Shown: one piece after another, positions 1 to 12,165 of the stretch | Numbering within the stretch: the stretch's first letter is position 1 | Layout of the letters: every line of letters starts with the position of its first letter | Assembly (NCBI GenBank): GCA_963662465.1 | Contig: OY759599.1 | Coordinates: forward strand, 6,624,001-6,688,000 | Reading direction: 5' to 3' | Length of the DNA: 64,000 nt | Source: Desulfatiglandales bacterium | GTDB lineage: Bacteria; Desulfobacterota; DSM-4660; Desulfatiglandales; Desulfatiglandaceae | The notes under the pieces: generated by a model | What the model was told of the DNA's origin: nothing | Seen by the model: the letters and a program-made list of their open reading frames with translations, nothing else | Databases searched by the model: none | Position numbers and translations under genes: made by a program

Positions 1-1
1 A

Positions 2-394
2 GGGAACTGGGGTAAAAACTGGGGCAATACGCGGGGGCTCATCGGCAACAGTATGCCCGCGCTCCTTTCCTCCGCCATCCTTGACAACATGACCATGAAG
101 ATCAACGACGCCGAGACCTACAGCTTCTGGTTGGATGCGTCCTACCGAATTGGCCCCGTTACCCCGCATCTGATCTACGGCCAGATGAAGACCAAAAACG
201 ACTTTCAGAGTGCTGATTTTGAAGCCAGGAGCCAGATGTGGGGGGTGAGCATCCCCATTGACCTGGCCAAGGGGTTCAGGATCAGGCCCGAGTTCATGTG
301 GTATGACGATGGCGACCTCGACATCGAAGGGGTAGAGCCCTTTGGGCTGGGAAAATACGCCATTTACGGCGTTCAGTTTCAGGTCACCTTTTAG
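2..394 (+). CDS. Outer-membrane beta-barrel/porin-like protein, 3' part (5' end outside the window)
   Basis: Frame is open from nt 2 (GNWGKNWGNTRG...). Amphipathic aromatic strands; ends YAIYGVQFQVTF with a C-terminal Phe, the BAM-type signature. Confidence 0.75.
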   Translation, partial: GNWGKNWGNTRGLIGNSMPALLSSAILDNMTMKINDAETYSFWLDASYRIGPVTPHLIYGQMKTKNDFQSADFEARSQMWGVSIPIDLAKGFRIRPEFMWYDDGDLDIEGVEPFGLGKYAIYGVQFQVTF

Positions 395-418
395 CACTTC
401 TTTATATGTGAGGCATTG

Positions 419-441
419 CCGGGTCCGTACAGAAGACCCGG
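419..441 (+). terminator. Stem-loop downstream of the porin (CCGGGTC-9nt-GACCCGG); possible terminator or mRNA-stabilising hairpin
   Basis: Perfect 7-bp inverted repeat without a U-tract; duplicated at 3980-4002. Confidence 0.35.
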
Positions 442-477
442 GAGGAATATTCAACCCTTAAATCAGGAGATGGGTAA

Positions 478-840
478 GTGGACGCGTTCGGCGATCCGGT
501 TTTCACCCTGGGTCCCGGGGAATGCGTCTCCCCCACCATCGAGGAAGGGCGCTACACCCTAATCTTCACCCACGACGGCGCCGGCGGACCGGCCACCTTT
601 GTTCTGGAGCCGGTATCCGGCGAAACGGAGGTTTCCGCAAACTATAGCCAGGAAGATCTGGACCGACTCAAAAATACCAAAAAATGCCCGAATTGTGACT
701 TGAGCGGGGCGGATCTGAGCAAGGTGGATCTGACCGGGGCGAATCTGACCGGGGCGAATCTGGAGCTGACCACATGGCTTGACGGCAGAAAATGCGTGCC
801 TGGGTCTATTGGCATGTGCGTCCGTGGCCGACCCAATTGA
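478..840 (+). pseudogene. Pentapeptide-repeat protein copy 1, 5'-deleted and repeat-contracted (may still be translated from GTG478)
   Basis: Matches copy 3 but lacks the signal peptide, about 95 N-terminal codons and most A(D/N)LXX repeats. Keeps KKCPNCDLSGADL and the WLDGRKC...C cap. AGGAG lies 8 nt upstream of the GTG. Confidence 0.65.
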
Positions 841-1191
841 TTCATTTGATTCCCCCATGGTCTCTTGCCTCCTGTACATTATGCTCTCCTGAGGGTGCCT
901 GCTCTTTTCCGTCCTCAGGGAATGCCGGCGCAATAAAAAAGAATGGGAGGCGGATTAAACACGCATGATCCGGCCGCGGAACAATGCCTCCGTCAACTTT
1001 CCGTTGTGGGAGAGTAAGTCCTGGGTTCAGTAAGCAGTTTTCAGACCCGACAACAACGCTTTTCCAATATTGGCGATCATGCCGTATATCGTGGTTCCCA
1101 TATTTTTGGAGAAACTTGAGATAACCGATCTGAACTATTCCGAGGACTTCAAGATTGAAACGAAGCATTTTGTTTAAAAGGAGGAGGAAAC

Positions 1192-2196
1192 ATGCGGAAC
1201 AATGAAGCGAACACGGCCCCGAAACTGAAGAGATCAGCCATACCCTTGGCAATTCTTCTCACGTCTTTGGTTCTGGTATCGATCGTATGTCTGTTTGCCT
1301 GTTCAGGCGGTGACGATGGAAGCGACACGACACGTGTGGTGCAGGCAATGGTATATTTTGATGAAAATGGTCCTGTTGCCGTGGCGTTTGTTCAGGACGA
1401 AAACAAGAACTACGTATCTGATGCCGTTCTGACCATGAATGACAGGCCCTTTGAAGTCACGTTTGACGAAACCGGCATTCCCGTGTATTACCTGGAACTG
1501 TATGATCTGATGGGCGGGGATTCGTTGACGTTTTTCGCGAAGCGTTTGAACGGTACGACCATCTATGCACCGCCCTCCTCTCAAATTCCGTTGTCCATGG
1601 AACTGCTCGAACCGGTATCCGGTCAAACGGTCCTGCCGGGGGACGAGGTTCTTGTTCGCTGGGCAGGCGGCGATGGGGCAACGCACATAGCGGTCTTCTA
1701 TGGGGATAACGAGAGCAAAAAAGAATACTGGAATGATCAGGAGTATGAAGATGTAACATCCATGACGATCCCGGCAGGCGTCGTCCTTCAAGGCGGAGGC
1801 ATTATCGGTACGGCTGCGCTTTCAGGCGATTACCCCGACTTTGACGCTGAAACCGGTTTCGATGCATTTGAATCCTGGTTTGTTGTATACCAGGATGCTG
1901 TGTTGGCAATAGATGTTCCTGTAGAAAATGGCGCAGTTGACTTCGCACAACAAGGTGACGGGGCGGAATGTCCGAATTCACCCATGGATAAGTCCTCTGC
2001 GTCTGCTGCATGCACCGGTGAGTTCGCTGCAATCGTAGGCGGAATAATATGGGGTACACGCTGGGGGATAGATGCGGGTAAACACCCATATTGTCCAATT
2101 CCTTTCGGCCCCTTTGGTTATTGCATCGAATATTCGAAGCGTTTTTCACACACGGTGTGGGTGAGCGGGTGTGAATGTCCCACGAAGCCGAAGTAA
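1192..2196 (+). CDS. Lipoprotein of unknown function with a C-terminal 6-Cys domain, copy 1
   Basis: Strong RBS AGGAGGAGG; basic N-region and hydrophobic stretch, then LFA-C-SGG lipobox (Cys37); beta-rich body; paralog at 2762-3769. Confidence 0.85.
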   Translation: MRNNEANTAPKLKRSAIPLAILLTSLVLVSIVCLFACSGGDDGSDTTRVVQAMVYFDENGPVAVAFVQDENKNYVSDAVLTMNDRPFEVTFDETGIPVYYLELYDLMGGDSLTFFAKRLNGTTIYAPPSSQIPLSMELLEPVSGQTVLPGDEVLVRWAGGDGATHIAVFYGDNESKKEYWNDQEYEDVTSMTIPAGVVLQGGGIIGTAALSGDYPDFDAETGFDAFESWFVVYQDAVLAIDVPVENGAVDFAQQGDGAECPNSPMDKSSASAACTGEFAAIVGGIIWGTRWGIDAGKHPYCPIPFGPFGYCIEYSKRFSHTVWVSGCECPTKPK

Positions 2197-2220
2197 GACA
2201 TTTTTCAGTGAACTGGGTTT

Positions 2221-2775
2221 AAAGGAGAAAGCTATCAAAGATGGCGCAAGGTTTCGGGCCGCGTTTTGACCTCCTATGACTTCCTGGAAAACGCGGGACT
2301 GACGGCCCAAAATGATGATCTGATAGTGATCTTCCTGGATGGTGCCGGAACCCCGGAGGTGTCCATCCCCTATGAAAACGCGCAGACGCTCACCCGGACC
2401 ATTTGCTGGGATCAGGAGGATTCCTCGCACACGGCCACCCTGGTGGACGCGTTCGGCGAACCGGTTTTCACCCTGGGTCCCGGGGAATGTGTCTCCCCCA
2501 CCATCGAGGAAGGGCGCTACACCCTAATCTTCACCCACGACGGCGGCAGCGGACCGGCCACCTTTGTTCTGGAGCCGGTACCCGGCGAAACGGAGGTTTC
2601 CGCAAACTATAGCCAGGAAGATCTGGACCGACTCAAAAATACCAAAAAATGCCCGAATTGTGACTTGAGCGGGGCATTTCTGGCCGGAGCGAATCTGGAA
2701 AAGGCGAATCTGTGGACTTCAAGATTGAAACGAAGCATTTCATTTAAAAGGAGGAGGAAACATGCGGAACAATGA
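2221..2775 (+). pseudogene. Pentapeptide-repeat protein copy 2, lacking the signal peptide and the 3' repeats and cap
   Basis: Near-identical to copy 3 from GGAGAAAGCTATCAAAGATGG onward. Fused at about 2713 (GGACTTCAAGATTG) to the upstream region of lipoprotein copy 2. Confidence 0.75.
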
Positions 2776-3769
2776 AGCGAACACGGCCCCGAAACTGAAG
2801 AGATCAGCCATACCCTTGGCAATTCTTCTCACGTCTTTGGTTCTGGTATCAATCGTATGTCTGTTTGCCTGTTCAGGCGGTGACGATGGAAGTAACACGA
2901 CACGTGTGGTGCAGGCAATGGTATATTTTGATGAAAATGGTCCTGCTGCCGTGGCGTTTGTTCAGGACGAAAACAAGAACTACGTATCTGATGCCGTTCT
3001 GACCATGAATGACAGGCCCTTTGAAGTCACGTCTGACGAAACCGACATTCCCATTTATTATCTGGAACTGTATGATCTGATGGGCGGGGATTCATTGACG
3101 TTTGTCGCGAAGCGTTTGAACGGTACGACCATCTATGCACCGCCCCCCTCTCAAATTCCGTTGTCCATGGAACTGCTCGAACCGGTATCCGGTCAAACGG
3201 TCCTGCCGGGGGACGAGGTTCTTGTCCGCTGGGCAGGCGGCGATGGGGCAACGCACATCGCGGCCTTCTATGCGGATAACGAGAGCAAAAAAGAATACTG
3301 GAATGATCAGCAGTATGAAGATGTAACATCCATGACGATCCCGGCAGGCGTCGTCCTTCAGGGTGGAGGCATTATCGGTGCGGCCGCGCTTTCAGGCGAT
3401 TATCCCGCGTTTGACGCTGAAACCGGTTTCGATGCATTTGAATCCTGGTTTGTTGTATATCAGGATGCTGTGTTGGCAATAGATGTTCCTGTAGAAAAGG
3501 GCGCGGTTGACTTCGCACAACAAGGTGACGGGGCGGAATGTCCGAATTCACCCATGAATAAGTACGCTGCGGCTGCTGCATGCAGTACTGAGATTGGTGC
3601 AATCGTAGGCGGAATAATATGGGGTATACGCTGGGGGATAGATGCGGGTAAACACCCATATTGTCCAATTCTTTTGGGCCCCATTGGTTATTGCATTGAT
3701 TATTCCACGCGTTTTTCACACACGGTTTGGGTGAGCGGGTGTCTATGTCCCACGAATCCAAAGAAGTAA
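2762..3769 (+). CDS. Lipoprotein of unknown function with a C-terminal 6-Cys domain, copy 2
   Basis: Same RBS and lipobox as copy 1; about 90% aa identical by manual alignment. Confidence 0.85.
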   Translation: MRNNEANTAPKLKRSAIPLAILLTSLVLVSIVCLFACSGGDDGSNTTRVVQAMVYFDENGPAAVAFVQDENKNYVSDAVLTMNDRPFEVTSDETDIPIYYLELYDLMGGDSLTFVAKRLNGTTIYAPPPSQIPLSMELLEPVSGQTVLPGDEVLVRWAGGDGATHIAAFYADNESKKEYWNDQQYEDVTSMTIPAGVVLQGGGIIGAAALSGDYPAFDAETGFDAFESWFVVYQDAVLAIDVPVEKGAVDFAQQGDGAECPNSPMNKYAAAAACSTEIGAIVGGIIWGIRWGIDAGKHPYCPILLGPIGYCIDYSTRFSHTVWVSGCLCPTNPKK

Positions 3770-3890
3770 GACATTTTTCAGTGAACTGGGTTTAAAGGAG
3801 AAAGATATCGTCATTATCGGCCCGTGGCAGCATAGGGATGCCGATGCAGAAAAAAGGCCGGGCCTCCATTGGGTCTGATAGAAAAAGGCG

Positions 3891-4036
3891 GGGGTAGAAC
3901 CCTTTGGGCCGGGAAAATACGCCATTTACGGCGTTCAGTTTCAGGTGATTTTTTAGCGCTTTTTTTATGTGAGGCATTACCGGGTCCGTACAGAAGACCC
4001 GGGGGAAGATTCAACCCTTAAATCAGAAGATGGGTG
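3891..4036 (+). repeat. Duplicate of the porin 3' end, hairpin and start region (copy of about 329-476)
   Basis: GGGGTAGA.CCCTTTGGGC.GGGAAAATACGCCATTTACGGCGTTCAGTTTCAGGT... recurs with few mismatches. Confidence 0.9.
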
Positions 4037-4038
4037 AA

Positions 4039-5068
4039 ATGAAAATTAGAATGACTTTCATGATGGCGCTGCTTGTTTTATCAGGGCTTATCACAAATGT
4101 TTACGGAGAAAGCTATCAAAGATGGCGCAAGGTTTCGGGCCGCGTTTTGACCTCCTATGACTTCCTGGAAAACGCGGGACTGACGGCCCAAAATGATGAT
4201 CTGATAGTGATCTTCCTGGATGGTGCCGGAACCCCGGAGGTGTCCATCCCCTATGAAAACGCCCGGCCCCACACCCGGACCATTTGCTGGGATCAGGAGG
4301 ATTCCTCGCACACGGCGACCCTGGTGGACGCGTTCGGCGAACCGGTTTTCACCCTGGATGGTGGGTCCCGGGGAATGTGATTCTCCCCCACGGTTTTCAT
4401 CGAAGGAAGGGCGCTACACCCTAATCTTCACCCACGACGACGCCGGCGGCCCGGCCACCTTTGTTCTGGAGCCGGTATCCGGCGAAACGGAGGTTTCCGC
4501 AAACTATAGCCAGGAAGATCTGGACCGACTCAAAAATACCAAAAAATGCCCGAATTGTGACTTGAGCGGGGCGGATCTGAGCAAGGCGGATCTGAGCAAG
4601 GCGGATCTGCAAAGAGCGAATCTGACCGATGCGACTCTGACCGGAGCGGATCTGAAATGGGCGGATCTGACCGGGGCGGATCTGCGCGGGGCGGATCTGA
4701 CTGGGGCGGATCTGAAAATCGCGGATCTGTACGATGCGAATCTGACCGGGACGATTCTATACGGGGTGAAGAATCTGAAGAAGACGAGGAATCTGAACTT
4801 GGCGAATCTGACCGGAGCGTATCTGCTTGCGGCGAGTCTGAGTAGGGCGAAACTGACCGGGGCGAATCTGTACAAGGCGAATCTGAAATTCGTGGATCTG
4901 AGCGATGCGAAACTGACCGGGGCGGATCTGCGCTCGGCGGATCTGACATGGGCGGATCTGAGCGATGCGACTCTGCACGGGGCCAGTCTAGAGGGTGCCA
5001 CATGGGTAGACGGCAGAAAATGCGCGGCTGGGTCTATTGGCACGTGCGTCCCTGGCCGACCCAATTGA
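4039..5068 (+). pseudogene. Secreted pentapeptide-repeat protein copy 3, full length but frameshifted at about 4355-4405
   Basis: Signal peptide MKIRMTFMMALLVLSGLITNVYG, N-terminal domain, CPNCDLSG, more than 25 A(D/N)LXX repeats, WVDGRKCAAGSIGTC cap. Split over ORFs 4030-4380 and 4220-5068 by clustered small insertions. Confidence 0.8.
4560..5000 (+). repeat. Degenerate 15-bp tandem repeats (GCG(G/A)ATCTGNNNNNN) encoding the pentapeptide repeats
   Basis: Directly visible periodicity. Confidence 0.9.
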
Positions 5069-5285: not shown

Positions 5286-5528
5286 ATGTAAACAAAATTA
5301 ACGCTGCGTTTGGAAAAACAGTTGGTTGAATTGGCAAAAGCGTACGCTTCTACCCAAGGGAAGTCGCTTTCAAAGATGGTCGCCGACTACTTTAAGTTGC
5401 TAAGCGACACTTGAGGGAAACAAAATGATGAATTTACCCCGATAGCCCTGTCTCTAAGAGGATCTTTGGGGAAAACTCAGATTGACGAATCGGATTATAA
5501 AAAGTATTTGCAGGAAAAATATTTGTGA
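5286..5528 (+). pseudogene. DUF6364-type (RHH) antitoxin pseudogene
   Basis: Manual translation: M*TKLTLRLEKQLVELAKAYASTQGKSLSKMVADYFKLLSDT*GKQNDEFTPIALSLRGSLGKTQIDESDYKKYLQEKYL. Two in-frame stops; RBS GGAGAGG. Confidence 0.75.
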
Positions 5529-5542
5529 AAATTTTATTCGAC
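5525..5542 (+). pseudogene. PIN-domain (VapC-like) toxin stub, first 6 codons only
   Basis: GTG overlaps the antitoxin stop (GTGA) and reads MKILFD, a typical PIN start (MKILFDTN). It is cut by the opposite-strand DUF1016 fragment. Confidence 0.55.
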
Positions 5543-5680
5543 TTGCCAGTACGTATCAATGAGTGCGACGTTTACTGCCTGAATAGCTTTATTTTTACCA
5601 TTTTGGATTATTTCCAATACCCTACCAAAATCTGTCTCAGCTATTTTAGTACGTACTGGGTGCTTAATTTCCTTATTCAT
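5540..5680 (-). pseudogene. DUF1016 (YhcG-like) N-terminal fragment
   Basis: MNKEIK...IIQNGKNKAIQAVNVALIDTYWQV resembles the DUF1016 N-terminal AVNxxLxxxYWxIG motif; truncated. Confidence 0.65.
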
Positions 5681-6001
5681 CACCGGCCTCCGTATTTTTA
5701 CCGGATTTGATCTGTTTCGCCGATTCTTTTGGAGGCAGAAATTTTTCACCGGTAAGCACGCTTTTCCCGGTTTTTTCTTCCAGGTCAAGCCGCGCTCTTT
5801 TAGCGATTTTTCCGCCTTGCCCTCTTTTTTGAGGCGGTTTTTTAGTCCTTTCCAGTAATTGCGGGCCGCTTGGTAATCCTTCTGTTGAATCAAAACGACA
5901 ATGATGTCTGCCACCGAAAAAAGCCAGATTTCGGTTTTTTCGTCATATACACGGCGTATCTTGTGGTCTTCGAATACGGCTAAGGCGATTTCTTTTGTCA
6001 T
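5673..6001 (-). pseudogene. Bro-N-domain protein, internally deleted
   Basis: N-terminus FEDHKIRRVYDEKTEIWLFSVADII...ARNYWKGLKNRLKKEG is joined out of frame to the C-terminus GGKIAKRARLDLEEKTGKSVLTGEKFLPP. Confidence 0.7.
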
Positions 6002-6174
6002 TTCAAGTCCTCCGCGCTGCCGACAATCTCTGCCAGCATGGCCACTATCTCCGATTCCAGTTCTTTGACATCGGCGGCAATATCTTCCAGAGCACGGGGC
6101 GGTTCATAGCGATAGAAATGGCGGTTCAGCGGAATCTCATAACCCACCTTGGTTTTGCTGTGATCAATCCATGT
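5998..6174 (-). pseudogene. hsdM: Type I restriction-modification methyltransferase (HsdM) C-terminal fragment
   Basis: WIDHSKTKVGYEIPLNRHFYRYEPPRALEDIAADVKELESEI is a characteristic HsdM C-terminus. Confidence 0.8.
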
Positions 6175-6409
6175 AAGCATACGGCTGCACACTGCAACCG
6201 ATTCCAATATCACTCCAGCCAAGTCGTTCCGCGACTTCCCGATGCTCTGGTGGGAACGCAACAGACCCACATCCAAAAAATTCGCTGACGTAGCTTATAT
6301 TTCGAACTTCACCCTGCTCGTCATTGCTGGACGCTCTCAATGGAACCCAGGTTGCACTAGAGAAGGCTCGGCGAGTTTCCTTTTTTTGGAGAATCCAGTC
6401 TTGCTTCAT
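6175..6409 (-). pseudogene. 5' fragment of a hypothetical protein
   Basis: MKQDWILQKKETRRAFSSATWVPLRAS...FFGCGSVAFP reads like real protein but ends at the hsdM junction. Confidence 0.4.
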
Positions 6410-7001: not shown

Positions 7002-7249
7002 CCCCGCCTCAACAACCGGAACACCCACGGCACCGGATGTGCTTTCTCAGCGGCCCTGGCACTCTGGTGCCCCAAGGATGCCCCATGCCCGAGGCGGTGA
7101 GACAGGCCAAACAGTTCATTAACCGGGCCATCGTCCTGGCACTGGATTTCGGGGCCGGGCACGGTCCCACCAACCATTACGCCCATGTGCTTCAATGTAT
7201 TGCGGATAAGGAGAATGACCCATGGCCCTACATGAAAAAGATACCGTAA
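7002..7249 (+). pseudogene. thiD: Hydroxymethylpyrimidine/phosphomethylpyrimidine kinase 3' remnant
   Basis: PRLNNRNTHGTGCAFSAALA, frameshift near 7060, then ...EAVRQAKQFINRAIVLALDFGAGHGPTNHY; carries the ThiD motifs HGTGC and GxGHGP.NH. Confidence 0.8.
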
Positions 7250-8613
7250 GAGCGAATCTTCTGGACGATGTCTATGCCTCCACGGATCTGTCGGTGCGGA
7301 TGCCGAAAACCAAATTTCCCGAAGCTGAACACGACCCCCGTCACGTTTACCAGGTGGTGCATGATGAATTGATGCTGGACGGCAATTCCCGCCAGAACCT
7401 GGCGACCTTCTGTTCCACCTGGATGGAGCCGGAAATCTATCAGCTCATGGATGAGTGTATCGACAAGAACATGATCGACAAGGATGAGTATCCCCAGACC
7501 GCCGAGATCGAAGCCCGGTGTGTGCATATGCTGGCGGATTTGTGGCATTCGCCGGAGGCGGCCAACACCATGGGATGTTCCACTACCGGGTCCAGCGAAG
7601 CGGCCATGTTGGGTGGGATGGCCATGAAGTGGCGGTGGCGGGAGAAGATGCGTGCGCAAGGTAAGGCAACGGACAAACCCAATATGGTTTGCGGTCCGGT
7701 GCAGATCTGCTGGCACAAGTTCGCCCGTTACTGGGATGTGGAACTGCGGGAGATTCCCATGGAAAATGATCGCCTGATCATGACGCCTGAGGAGGTTGTC
7801 AAGCGCTGCGATGAAAACACCATCGGTGTGGTGCCCACCCTGGGGGTCACCTTTACCTGTCAGTATGAACCGGTCAAGGCCGTTGCCGATGCCCTGGAAC
7901 GGCTCCAAAAGGATACGGGCCTGGATATCCCCATCCATGTGGATGGGGCCAGCGGCGGGTTTTTGGCGCCTTTTGCCGATCCTGACCTGGAATGGGATTT
8001 TCGGGTGCCGCGGGTCAAATCCATCAACGCCTCCGGCCACAAGTTCGGTCTGGCGTCGTTGGGGGTCGGCTGGGTGGTCTGGCGAGACAAGGAAGATTTA
8101 CCCGATGATCTGATTTTCCGGGTCAACTATCTGGGGGGTAATATGGCCACCTTTGCCCTGAACTTTTCGCGACCCGGAGGACAGGTCGTTGCCCAGTATT
8201 ACAATTTCTTGCGACTGGGCAAAGAGGGCTACCGCAAGATTCACCAGGCCTGCTATGATACCGCCGCCTATCTGGCCGACGAGATTCGAAAGATGGGACC
8301 GTTCAACGTGATTTATGACGGTCGGGGCGGTATTCCGGCCCTCTGCTGGTCCTTGAAGGAGGGCGTTAATACGGGATTTTCCCTTTATGATCTTGCGGAC
8401 CGGTTGCGAAGTCGCGGGTGGCAGGTCCCGGCCTATTCCATGCCCGCCAACCGGGAGGATCTGGTGATCCAGCGCATTCTGGTGCGTCACGGCGTCAGCC
8501 GGGATCTGGGGGATCTGCTCATGGGCGATCTGCGGCGCTGCATCGATTACTTTGAGAAGAATCCGGTTAGTACGCCGCTGACCGAGGAGGCTGCCGGGGG
8601 CTATCGACATTGA
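7222..8613 (+). CDS. gadB: Glutamate decarboxylase (PLP-dependent)
   Basis: [38 protein letters not shown] and SGHK PLP-lysine motifs. Confidence 0.95.
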
Positions 8614-10375: not shown

Positions 10376-11968
10376 ATGATGGCGGTGCAACGCTTTTTCA
10401 ATACGGAAGGGCCGGTCAACTGTGATGATCACTACTGCCTGGCGCCTCTGGAACGGATTCAACTTTTCGATATCCTGGGGCTTATTGCACAGAAGAAATA
10501 TTTTGTATTGCACGCCCCCCGGCAGACGGGGAAAACCTCCTGCCTGCTGGCGCTGATGGATTACCTTAACCGGCAGGGGGTCTATACCTGCCTTTACATG
10601 AATGCGGAAAAGGGACAGTCGGCCCGGGAGGATGTGACAAGGGGCATGCGGGCGGTGGTGGGAGATTTGGCATCCAGGGCACGGGACTTTCTGCATGATG
10701 ACTTCCCAGTGAAACATATGAACTCAATCCGGGAGGAGTGGGGGGAAGACAGCGTCTTCAGCGAACTGTTGAGCCAGTGGAGTGAACGACTGGACAAGAA
10801 GCTTGTGCTGTTCATCGATGAGGTGGACACGCTGATCGGAGACACGTTGATTTCCCTGCTTCGGCAGATTCGGGCCGGCTATGATAAACGACCCGGCCAT
10901 TTTCCCCAGTCAATCATTCTGTGCGGTGTTCGGGATGTGCGGGACTACCGGATCCATTCCGCCAGGGAAAAAGCCGTGATAACAGGCGGAAGCGCCTTCA
11001 ACATCAAGGCCAAGTCTCTGCGGCTGGGAGACTTTCACCGGGAAGGGATGGTATCTCTTTACCGACAGCATACGGAGGAAACCGGTCAGATTTTTGAACC
11101 GGATGCCTTGTTCCTGGCATGGGACCTGACCCAGGGGCAACCCTGGCTGGTGAATGCATTGGCCTATGAGACTTGTTTTGAGATGGAAGCGGGAAGAGAT
11201 CGCCAACGCCCCATCACCCGCGAAATGATTGAAGACGCCAAGGAAGCCCTGATTCAGAATCGCGCCACCCACCTGGATCAACTGGCCGATAAACTCCAGG
11301 AAGAGCGGGTAAGAAGCGTGGTTTCAAAGATCCTGTCAGGCCTGGAGTCCCCAAAGACAATTCCTGAAGACGATGTTCAATATGTGAGGGATCTGGGCTT
11401 GATAAGGGTGTCGTCAGGCCAGATGGAAATTGCCAATCCCATTTACCGGGAAATCATTCCCAGACAACTCACCTACAGCACCCAGCTCACCATCTCCCAG
11501 CAGGCCGCATGGTATGTGGAACCGGACGGTCGGCTGAACATGAAGAAGCTTCTTTCGGCGTTTCAGGAATTCTTCCGGGAGCATTCAGAACACTGGCTGG
11601 AGCGGTTTCAATATAAAGAAGCCGGTCCTCAGCTACTGATGCAGGCTTTTCTGCAACGGATCATCAACGGCGGTGGACGGGTGGAACGGGAGTACGGTTT
11701 GGGACGCATGCGGACCGACCTGTTGGTGGTATGGCCGTTCCAAGGCGGTATGCAGAAGGTGGTGATCGAACTCAAGGTGCTTCATAAGACCCTGGAGAAG
11801 ACCATTTTTAATGGCCTCTCCCAGACTCACGCCTACATGGACCGGTGCGGAACCTCCGAAGGGAACCTGGTGATCTTTGATCGGAATCCTGATCGGACAT
11901 GGGAGGAAAAGATATTTGTTCGAGAAAAAGAATATGAGGGTAAGAAAGTCACGGTTTGGGGGATGTGA
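10376..11968 (+). CDS. AAA-like P-loop ATPase with a C-terminal PD-(D/E)XK-like domain
   Basis: Walker A HAPRQTGKTS, Walker B LFIDEVD, SAFNIK; C-terminal REYGLGRMRTDL...VVIELK. Confidence 0.85.
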   Translation: MMAVQRFFNTEGPVNCDDHYCLAPLERIQLFDILGLIAQKKYFVLHAPRQTGKTSCLLALMDYLNRQGVYTCLYMNAEKGQSAREDVTRGMRAVVGDLASRARDFLHDDFPVKHMNSIREEWGEDSVFSELLSQWSERLDKKLVLFIDEVDTLIGDTLISLLRQIRAGYDKRPGHFPQSIILCGVRDVRDYRIHSAREKAVITGGSAFNIKAKSLRLGDFHREGMVSLYRQHTEETGQIFEPDALFLAWDLTQGQPWLVNALAYETCFEMEAGRDRQRPITREMIEDAKEALIQNRATHLDQLADKLQEERVRSVVSKILSGLESPKTIPEDDVQYVRDLGLIRVSSGQMEIANPIYREIIPRQLTYSTQLTISQQAAWYVEPDGRLNMKKLLSAFQEFFREHSEHWLERFQYKEAGPQLLMQAFLQRIINGGGRVEREYGLGRMRTDLLVVWPFQGGMQKVVIELKVLHKTLEKTIFNGLSQTHAYMDRCGTSEGNLVIFDRNPDRTWEEKIFVREKEYEGKKVTVWGM

Positions 11969-12165
11969 AGAGAGGCAATTTACGCCTCGATCAAACCGTC
12001 GATATCGAAGTTGTGGGGGGTTATGTGGTTTTGTCTCCAACCCAAAAACCGGTCGAATATTCTCTGGATGAATTGTTAGCGCAATGTAATGGGGATACCA
12101 TGGCGTTGGATGAAGAGGACGAAGAATGGTTGCGTGAAGAACCGGTTGGCAGAGAGATATTTTGA
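11969..12165 (+). pseudogene. mazE: MazE/AbrB antitoxin, 5'-truncated
   Basis: VDIEVVGGYVVLSP...YSLDELLAQC...EEWLREEPVGREIF; the N-terminal KWGNS motif is missing. Confidence 0.75.

What the first reader, a model, noticed from the sequence alone, without database searches (positions are those of the whole stretch)
1192..3769. Paralogous lipoproteins with a conserved scaffold and a diversified 6-Cys C-terminal domain: candidate polymorphic surface system
Seen: by manual alignment the two lipoproteins differ at about 13 of the first 265 residues (~5%) but at about 16-17 of the last 69 (~24%). All six Cys and the hydrophobic Gly-rich AIVGGIIWG core are retained, and many tail changes are multi-base and non-synonymous (SSAS/YAAA, TGEFA/STEIG, PFGPF/LLGPI). 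Inference: a membrane-anchored carrier displays a disulfide-knotted, bacteriocin/defensin-like or receptor-binding tip under diversifying selection (antagonism, kin recognition, phage or predator evasion). I recognise no family for it.
Basis: partly seen in the sequence, partly recalled or inferred. Interest (0 to 1): 0.72.

Follow-up and report, generated by a model that had tools for sequence, protein, structure and literature searches.

The report
Stalked lipoproteins with fast-changing cysteine tips
Two side-by-side gene copies in a sulfate-reducing bacterium encode predicted membrane-anchored stalks that end in a small cysteine-rich tip; across an unnamed family this tip changes far faster than the stalk and was likely swapped by recombination, which would fit a binding tip caught in an arms race, though its target is untested.

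Summary
In detail: the two lipoproteins differ at 13 of 265 front residues and 16 of 69 tail residues (p=1.7e-5). Silent changes are equal in both parts, so gene conversion does not explain it. Tail dN/dS is about 1.0 against 0.35 in the stalk: not proof of positive selection, but none of the 16 changes hits the 16 family-conserved framework columns. The family has no Pfam or NCBIfam name. An acidic, predicted Ig-like stalk carries a predicted three-helix tip with no structural match. Relatives with 93-96% identical stalks have tips only 39-56% identical. At intermediate distances silent sites are saturated in tips but not stalks (72% vs 35%), pointing to recombination at the boundary. The stalk carries at least three unrelated tip types, but type swaps are rare and old. 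The tip also occurs as a free secreted protein. No immunity gene, DGR or conserved pentapeptide link was found. Best guess: a non-toxic binding (decoy or inhibitor) tip. Function untested.

The parts
1192..2196 (+). Lipoprotein copy A (334 aa): signal peptide 1192-1299, lipobox Cys37 at 1300-1302
   Evidence: ORF with RBS; lipobox LFAC by sequence; C37 invariant in 14 homologues
1327..1923 (+). Acidic stalk of copy A (residues 46-244): predicted beta-sandwich domain 46-133 and a probable second one
   Evidence: AF2 strands, domain 1 pLDDT 50-83, domain 2 low confidence; generic Ig/Fn3-like matches, best Z 8.1, rmsd 2.4, 78 aligned; net charge about -27
1969..2193 (+). Six-Cys tip of copy A (residues 260-334), predicted three helices 267-279, 282-297, 306-317
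   Evidence: tip-only AF2 pLDDT 82.5, pTM 0.71; invariant C, W, Y columns
2762..3769 (+). Lipoprotein copy B (335 aa); stalk 2897-3493, tip 3539-3766
   Evidence: 91% identical to A
1144..2236 (+). Duplicated unit, first copy (48 bp leader with RBS, gene, about 40 bp trailer)
   Evidence: blastn 94.9% over 1096 bp with 2714-3809
2714..3809 (+). Duplicated unit, second copy
2224..2712 (+). Internal fragment of a pentapeptide-repeat gene between the two copies; joins A's trailer at an 8-base shared stretch. Local neighbour, not part of the family
   Evidence: no such gene found in 24 related loci
972..1125 (.). Worn copy of a ~150-bp repeat found at 5-6 other places in the genome; several other copies follow the same junction motif that closes family genes in relatives

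Best explanation
The two genes encode predicted lipid-anchored envelope proteins in which an acidic, predicted Ig-like stalk holds out a small cysteine-stapled three-helix tip that likely binds a changing foreign protein (such as a rival's toxin or lytic enzyme, or a phage part) as a decoy or inhibitor rather than killing anything itself. Shown by sequence: duplication; the lipobox; a fixed Cys/Trp/Tyr framework with variable positions between; tips that diverge much faster than stalks across the family; silent-site saturation confined to tips; unrelated tip types on the same stalk; free secreted forms of the tip; no linked partner gene; shared flanking sequences and a nearby tyrosine recombinase in relatives. 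Predicted: the folds. Inferred: lipidation and envelope location, disulfide pairing, recombination at the stalk-tip boundary, movement as cassette cargo, and an arms race as the cause. Untested: any binding, the target, and the side of the membrane. In this window the variety arose by tandem duplication followed by point change, with B changing mostly in the tip and A in both parts.
For: Tip dN/dS 1.02 vs stalk 0.35 for A/B and 0.84 vs 0.22 for an independent close pair L033/L036, with equal dS in both parts. 0 of 16 A/B tip changes fall in the 16 framework columns of 77 (chance 0.015), and they sit at family-variable columns (p=0.006). The 4 class I pairs (of 528) with stalks over 90% identical have tips 39-79% identical. 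In 5 disjoint intermediate pairs, four-fold silent sites at unchanged residues differ at 133 of 380 stalk codons but 63 of 87 tip codons (saturation 0.74; p=3e-10). Even Cys number in 29 of 33 class I tips. Free Sec-type secreted tips P0176, P0177 (hhalign 98.4%). No shared downstream ORF other than mobile-element remnants among 17 genes. RT-gene remnant downstream of 10 of 19 genes, boundary motifs in 11 of 20 and 9 of 20 flanks, and one recombinase family beside 3 related loci. Patchy spread: stalk in 3 of 11 genomes of the genus, 1 of 401 sampled from the phylum. Recombinase-linked arrays of unpaired defence genes exist (rAID; 10.1101/471110, passages read).
Against: No target, binding or phenotype data. 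dN/dS is not above 1 (tail pN vs pS p=1.0). Copy A also carries about 6 derived changes at stalk columns that are near-constant in relatives, which suggests relaxed selection on A. Tree tests do not reject matching stalk and tip histories (AU p 0.09-0.46). A and B themselves show no recombination signal and lack the boundary motifs and RT remnant. The boundary motifs were picked by eye from the same flanks. The tip matches no known immunity or inhibitor family. No DsbB or VKOR match and no even-Cys bias in 49 lipoprotein-like ORFs of the host (23 even; crude caller), so the cysteines could bind metal instead.
Confidence: 0.4

Rival explanations
1. The tip is a toxic effector (membrane-active or enzyme-blocking) aimed at competitors or grazers, shown on the surface or shed, as in lipoprotein polymorphic toxins; the acidic stalk may mask a basic tip until release.
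For: Conserved N-terminal carrier with unrelated C-termini; stalks net -13 to -37 in nearly all rows, class II and III tips mostly basic (up to +17); free secreted forms; lipobox-carrier toxin systems are described (PMC12419801 section 29; SitA, PMC5562445 abstract).
Against: No cognate immunity gene beside any of 17 genes examined; window tips only +2/+3; no toxin or enzyme fold match; tip types follow the stalk tree with 5 changes against a minimum of 4.
Confidence: 0.2
2. The tip is an adhesin or self-recognition tip: cells bind partners or kin through allele-specific contacts, like TraA or Ig-stalk adhesins.
For: Anchor, Ig-like stalk and variable distal domain; old tip alleles kept on young stalks fit balancing selection.
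Against: Free secreted forms would not tether cells; missing from 8 of 11 genomes of the genus searched, several incomplete; short stalk; no conserved partner gene; surface exposure not shown.
Confidence: 0.17
3. There is no arms race: the tip is a loosely constrained cysteine module (for example a metal- or redox-binding domain) and the A/B contrast is drift after duplication in a decaying, rearranged region.
For: dN/dS about 1, only 5 silent and 17 replacement changes; neighbours are broken duplicates; A has derived changes at conserved stalk columns; no DsbB/VKOR.
Against: Same stalk-tip contrast in an independent pair; framework untouched; both ORFs intact; silent-site saturation confined to tips needs recombination, not drift; class III tips on the same stalk are more conserved than their stalks at most distances.
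Confidence: 0.18
4. The stalk is a DUF4249-like partner (lid) of an outer-membrane barrel, and the tip sets substrate choice.
For: Distant stalk relatives match DUF4249 (P0126 E 1.7e-15; P0138 E 0.0055); a DUF4249 lipoprotein is cofit with a TonB-dependent transporter (10.1101/2023.03.17.533168, one passage); a putative barrel gene ends at window 394.
Against: No DUF4249 match for any of 8 stalk rows; the barrel gene has no match in 24 related loci.
Confidence: 0.05

Closest known systems
Lipoprotein polymorphic toxins: myxobacterial SitA (PMC5562445, abstract and outline seen) and lipobox + Cystatin-like carrier toxins (PMC12419801, section 29 read)
   Same: Lipobox, conserved N-terminal carrier, several unrelated C-terminal domains.
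   Different: No cognate immunity gene; tips are small Cys-rich or beta domains with no toxin match; tip types are rarely swapped; variation is mostly within one tip fold.
rAID-1 recombinase-associated orphan immunity arrays of Bacteroidales (10.1101/471110, passages read)
   Same: Unpaired genes near a tyrosine recombinase with shared intergenic sequences (seen in relatives, not in the window).
   Different: No homology to known immunity families was found; different host group; no protective function tested; RT-gene remnant forms part of the flank.
TraA kin-recognition receptor (search listing and abstract starts only) and Ig-stalk adhesins such as invasin/intimin (recalled, not from a call)
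   Same: Surface anchor, stalk and a polymorphic distal domain.
   Different: Here the Cys-rich part is the variable tip; no TraB-like partner; lipobox anchor; free secreted tips exist.
DUF4249 (PF14054) lipoproteins
   Same: Beta-rich lipoprotein of about 200-270 aa; distant stalk relatives hit the model.
   Different: The window proteins do not match it, and carry an extra tip.
DGR target lipoproteins with hypervariable C-terminal domains (recalled, not from a call)
   Same: Lipoprotein with a variable C-terminal tip.
   Different: No template repeat, changes not limited to adenine.

Membership tests
Polymorphic toxin systems (incl. SitA) | Conserved N-terminal carrier with highly variable C-terminal domain | tested here: met
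   At least three unrelated tip types plus tip-less forms on one stalk
Polymorphic toxin systems (incl. SitA) | Genomically linked cognate immunity gene | tested here: not met
   17 genes examined; the only shared downstream ORFs are the opposite strand of an RT remnant and pentapeptide fragments; several contigs end within 500-750 bp
Polymorphic toxin systems (incl. SitA) | Tip is a recognisable toxin domain | tested here: inconclusive
   No significant Pfam, NCBIfam, PDB or BFVD match
Polymorphic toxin systems (incl. SitA) | Toxic to non-immune cells | not testable with these tools
   needs a bench assay
DGR target protein | Template repeat matching the variable region elsewhere in the genome | tested here: not met
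   blastn of both tips finds only the two genes
DGR target protein | Changes confined to adenine positions | tested here: not met
   22 tip differences involve all four bases in both copies
DUF4249 (PF14054) | Score above the Pfam cut-off | tested here: not met
   no hit for A, B or 8 stalk rows
DUF4249 (PF14054) | Encoded beside a TonB-dependent transporter | tested here: inconclusive
   no conserved neighbour by eye in ORF lists; no dedicated scan
Saposin-like, defensin-like or bacteriocin folds | Structural match of the tip | tested here: inconclusive
   best Z 2.9 (YmgD, rmsd 3.8, 61 aligned); these families not listed among 46 rows
rAID-type recombinase-associated arrays | Adjacent tyrosine recombinase | tested here: inconclusive
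   present beside 3 related loci (L010, L021, L029), not near the window; three full-length copies elsewhere in the genome
rAID-type recombinase-associated arrays | Repeated intergenic sequences between cargo genes | tested here: inconclusive
   motifs in 11 of 20 upstream and 9 of 20 downstream flanks (shuffle means 0.24 and 0.17), absent at A and B; motifs chosen by eye
rAID-type recombinase-associated arrays | Cargo homologous to immunity proteins and protective | not testable with these tools
   no immunity family hit in Pfam or NCBIfam; protection needs a bench assay

The most novel reading that the evidence does not exclude
An unnamed polymorphic display platform of sediment sulfate reducers: one lipid-anchored Ig-like stalk presents a library of cysteine-stapled mini-binders, including a three-helix fold with no solved match, that is diversified by point change and by recombination at the stalk-tip boundary, and is moved between genomes as recombinase cassettes, with no immunity partner: a bacterial natural library of disulfide-rich binding scaffolds used in defence.
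Probability: 0.25. Interest if true: 0.8.

Novelty: new variant of a known kind. Interest (0 to 1): 0.55.

Why it matters
Small hypervariable disulfide-type binders are best known from eukaryotes (my own knowledge); a family of them on a bacterial lipoprotein stalk, in an anaerobe without a recognisable DsbB/VKOR, raises testable questions about what drives their variation and how the cysteines pair. The near-identical A/B pair is a ready experiment: same stalk, 16 tip differences. It also names one kind of cargo for the recombinase cassette system that earlier notes describe in this genome. The function is open, the family is rare and the two copies alone do not prove selection, which limits the score.

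Tried and rejected
Gene conversion of the 5' part as cause of the A/B contrast: silent differences 9/174 vs 3/55 and 4/92 vs 2/30 at four-fold sites, rejected. DGR: rejected. Link to pentapeptide or barrel genes: no tblastn hit in 24 loci, many of them short or duplicates. Frequent swaps of unrelated tip types: 5 changes vs minimum 4 on a 73-row stalk tree. Individual mosaics (P0021, P0027, P0009/P0011) suggested by trees: not supported by AU tests. Saposin-like fold, suggested by Cys spacing: not among VIA rows, inconclusive. Fold searches of the tip: Foldseek PDB and BFVD none at E<=0.001. ESM Atlas: full length best 0.88, unnamed clusters, lead only; tip no usable hit. Genome-contig scans: none for A1; the one hit for P0177 (L041) lies in another gene's frame and was dropped as spurious. 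Viral contigs and plasmids: no match. Rfam on 16 loci: only two tRNAs. IQ-TREE codon models ran but I could not read omega from the output, so only tree lengths were seen. Promoter and terminator scans gave chance-level counts. RNA runs: one 163-nt contig on the stalk of B in X6, small share, no evidence of expression. A salt-lake run X7 holds relatives with 31 differences in 557 stalk bases and 26 in about 190 tip bases; not shown to be one gene. Complex prediction (tip dimer) was not available. Literature searches with no matching paper: 5 papers, none on this family; 0; 0; DUF4249, 3 papers; subscription journals are mostly not covered and bioRxiv supplements were not seen.

Full report
OBSERVATION. 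Copy A (1192-2196, 334 aa) and copy B (2762-3769, 335 aa) lie in a direct duplication of 1,096 bp at 94.9% identity. They differ at 13 of the first 265 and 16 of the last 69 residues (p=1.7e-5). All cysteines are shared. Only 3 of the 16 tail changes are multi-base. By Nei-Gojobori counting the stalk has dN 0.027, dS 0.08 (ratio 0.35) and the tip dN 0.107, dS 0.10 (ratio 1.02) (1.04 with other limits). The excess is in replacement changes (p=1.2e-5), not silent ones (p=0.36), so conversion of the 5' part does not explain it. The tip ratio is not above 1 (p=1.0). A third paralogue at 33% identity lies about 10 kb before the window.

HOST. One 8.16-Mb contig with dsrA above cut-off, LolA and two DsbA-like matches, but no DsbB or VKOR match: a diderm sulfate reducer by gene content.

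ANATOMY. Residues 1-36 are a signal peptide ending in a lipobox; Cys37 is invariant in 14 aligned homologues. The full-length AF2 model is poor (pLDDT 51.7) but shows a beta-rich stalk and a helical tail. Residues 46-133 match generic Ig/Fn3-like sandwiches (best Z 8.1, rmsd 2.4, 78 aligned). A second sandwich is inferred from low-confidence strands and from the second half of the stalk profile matching repeated domains in very large proteins. The tip alone folds with confidence from 15 sequences (pLDDT 82.5): helices 267-279, 282-297, 306-317. It has no match in Foldseek PDB, BFVD or among 48,161 chains by VIA (best Z 2.9), nor in Pfam or NCBIfam. That does not prove a new fold. The stalk is strongly acidic (about -27); the tips carry +2 and +3, weak for a defensin-like peptide.

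FAMILY. A single-sequence search gave 12 proteins. A stalk profile gave 437 hits among 1.84 billion representatives; I read the best 150 and kept those with over 120 profile positions and under 1,000 aa. Their C-termini fall into classes that I assigned by eye: class I (the window's six-Cys core, often with extra Cys-rich appendages), class II (very diverse Cys-rich, mostly basic tips), class III (a nearly Cys-free basic domain of about 110 aa), one other type, and tip-less stalks. One related genome (G005) holds three class II genes and a truncated one; another (G009) a class III gene. On a 73-row stalk tree the classes need 5 changes against a minimum of 4, so whole-type swaps are rare and old. 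The class I tip also occurs without stalk in small proteins with a plain signal peptide (P0176, 161 aa; P0177, 120 aa). The stalk was found in 3 of 11 genomes of the genus and 1 of 401 sampled from the phylum; the class I tip in 1 of 209 genomes of the order; many of these are incomplete.

HOW THE TIP VARIES. Among 33 class I proteins, the 4 pairs (of 528) with stalks over 90% identical have tips 39-79% identical; P0005/P0006/P0007 are 93-96% alike in the stalk and 39-56% in the tip. Class III shows the reverse at most distances. Sixteen of 77 tip columns are conserved in at least 70% of the other rows (six Cys, W287, R290, D294, Y310, Y314, W323 and others; the script's numbering runs one higher); none of the 16 A/B changes hits them (chance 0.015), and the changes favour variable columns (p=0.006). 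An independent close pair, L033/L036, repeats the pattern (0.22 vs 0.84, equal dS). At intermediate distance silent sites behave differently: in five disjoint pairs, four-fold sites at unchanged residues differ at 133 of 380 stalk codons and 63 of 87 tip codons, against 0.74-0.75 at saturation, and DNA identity drops sharply at the boundary (L022/L023: 80% to 49%). Tips are thus older than the stalks that carry them, which I read as recombination near the linker. Against this: AU tests on three candidate mosaics do not reject matching trees (p 0.09-0.46), and not every pair shows the contrast. A and B show no such signal; they diverged by point change. B's stalk branch is 0.005 and A's 0.063, while tip branches are 0.18 and 0.12; A has about 6 derived changes at near-constant stalk columns, a sign of relaxed selection on A. 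Class I tips have an even Cys count in 29 of 33 cases (related rows, so not independent); class II in only 4 of 11. A crude scan finds no even-Cys bias in the host's lipoprotein-like ORFs (23 of 49). Disulfides are likely but unproven.

CONTEXT. In the window the genes sit among broken duplicates of a pentapeptide-repeat gene and a putative outer-membrane barrel gene. Neither has a match in 24 related loci. No conserved partner or immunity-like ORF follows 17 family genes. Instead, 10 of 19 genes with at least 400 bp of downstream DNA are followed, on the opposite strand, by the same 3' remnant of a reverse-transcriptase gene (43% identical to an annotated RT-domain protein on a Serratia plasmid). 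A junction motif closes 9 of 20 downstream flanks and an arm-like motif lies 125-400 bp upstream in 11 of 20 (shuffle means 0.17 and 0.24; motifs chosen by eye). A 293-aa tyrosine recombinase lies upstream of the gene in three related loci (L010, L021, and its start in L029); the own genome has three full-length copies at 75-78% identity elsewhere. A and B lack these flanks; only the worn repeat at 972-1125 ties A to the junction family. Earlier notes e1-8292247 and e1-9895898 describe cassette-like modules in this genome; they gave me this lead and I checked it only in part.

MECHANISM. I commit, at 0.4, to a tethered binding tip in a conflict, acting as decoy or inhibitor. It accounts for the fixed framework with variable surface, old alleles on young stalks, duplication, patchy and mobile occurrence, free secreted forms and the lack of an immunity gene. 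Toxin (0.2), adhesin or kin tip (0.17), drift of a loosely constrained module (0.18) and barrel lid (0.05) remain open. No binding, location or phenotype was tested.

KNOWN SYSTEMS. It is built like lipoprotein polymorphic toxins (PMC5562445, abstract and outline; PMC12419801, passages and section 29) but fails the immunity-gene feature, so I do not file it there. It is not a DGR target and does not match DUF4249 (10.1101/2023.03.17.533168, one passage). Its flanks recall rAID arrays (10.1101/471110, passages). Searches found no paper on this family in the held library; supplements were not read.

VERDICT. Real feature, unnamed family, new variant of a known design (anchor, stalk, polymorphic tip). 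Interest 0.55.

Noticed in passing
window 322-840, 2224-2712, 3891-5068 and L001:13343-14587: Four related copies of a signal-peptide pentapeptide-repeat gene, each of three preceded by the 3' end of the barrel gene; the copy at 4030-5068 is frameshifted near 4350-4400, the copies at 478-840 and 2224-2712 are truncated; its N-terminal domain occurs nowhere else in the genome.
   Followed up: partly
window 1-394 and L001:17105-18394: Putative outer-membrane barrel gene ending in Phe, no Pfam or NCBIfam match, two paralogues at 53-56% elsewhere in the genome; an internally deleted copy at L001:13343-13762.
   Followed up: partly
L001:9857-12469 (genome C1 about 6,615,857-6,618,469): 870-aa lipoprotein right after the third paralogue; only weak, non-significant NCBIfam hits (alpha-xenorhabdolysin subunit A E 0.021).
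   Followed up: no
L001:9153-9369; L040, L036, L022, L023, L024, L025, L031, L010: A 3' remnant of a reverse-transcriptase gene, starting at about the same point each time, lies antisense behind many family genes; no full-length copy was found in the own genome.
   Followed up: partly
P0016, P0050, L012:8801-9934 and about 20 others: Class III tip: a conserved, basic, unnamed domain of about 110 aa, also behind FG-GAP repeats; not folded here.
   Followed up: no
L010:3150-11716: Array in G005 with two class II lipoproteins, a truncated third, and a secreted lamin-tail plus C39-like peptidase protein, next to the tyrosine recombinase.
   Followed up: partly
P0169: Class I stalk and tip behind a short signal region of the class II type, a possible 5' recombinant.
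   Followed up: no
window 5300-6300 and 10376-12165: By eye: remnants of toxin-antitoxin, Bro-N-like and restriction-methylase genes, an AAA-type ATPase and an AbrB-like small gene; a glutamate decarboxylase-like gene at 7222-8613. Labels recalled, not scanned.
   Followed up: no
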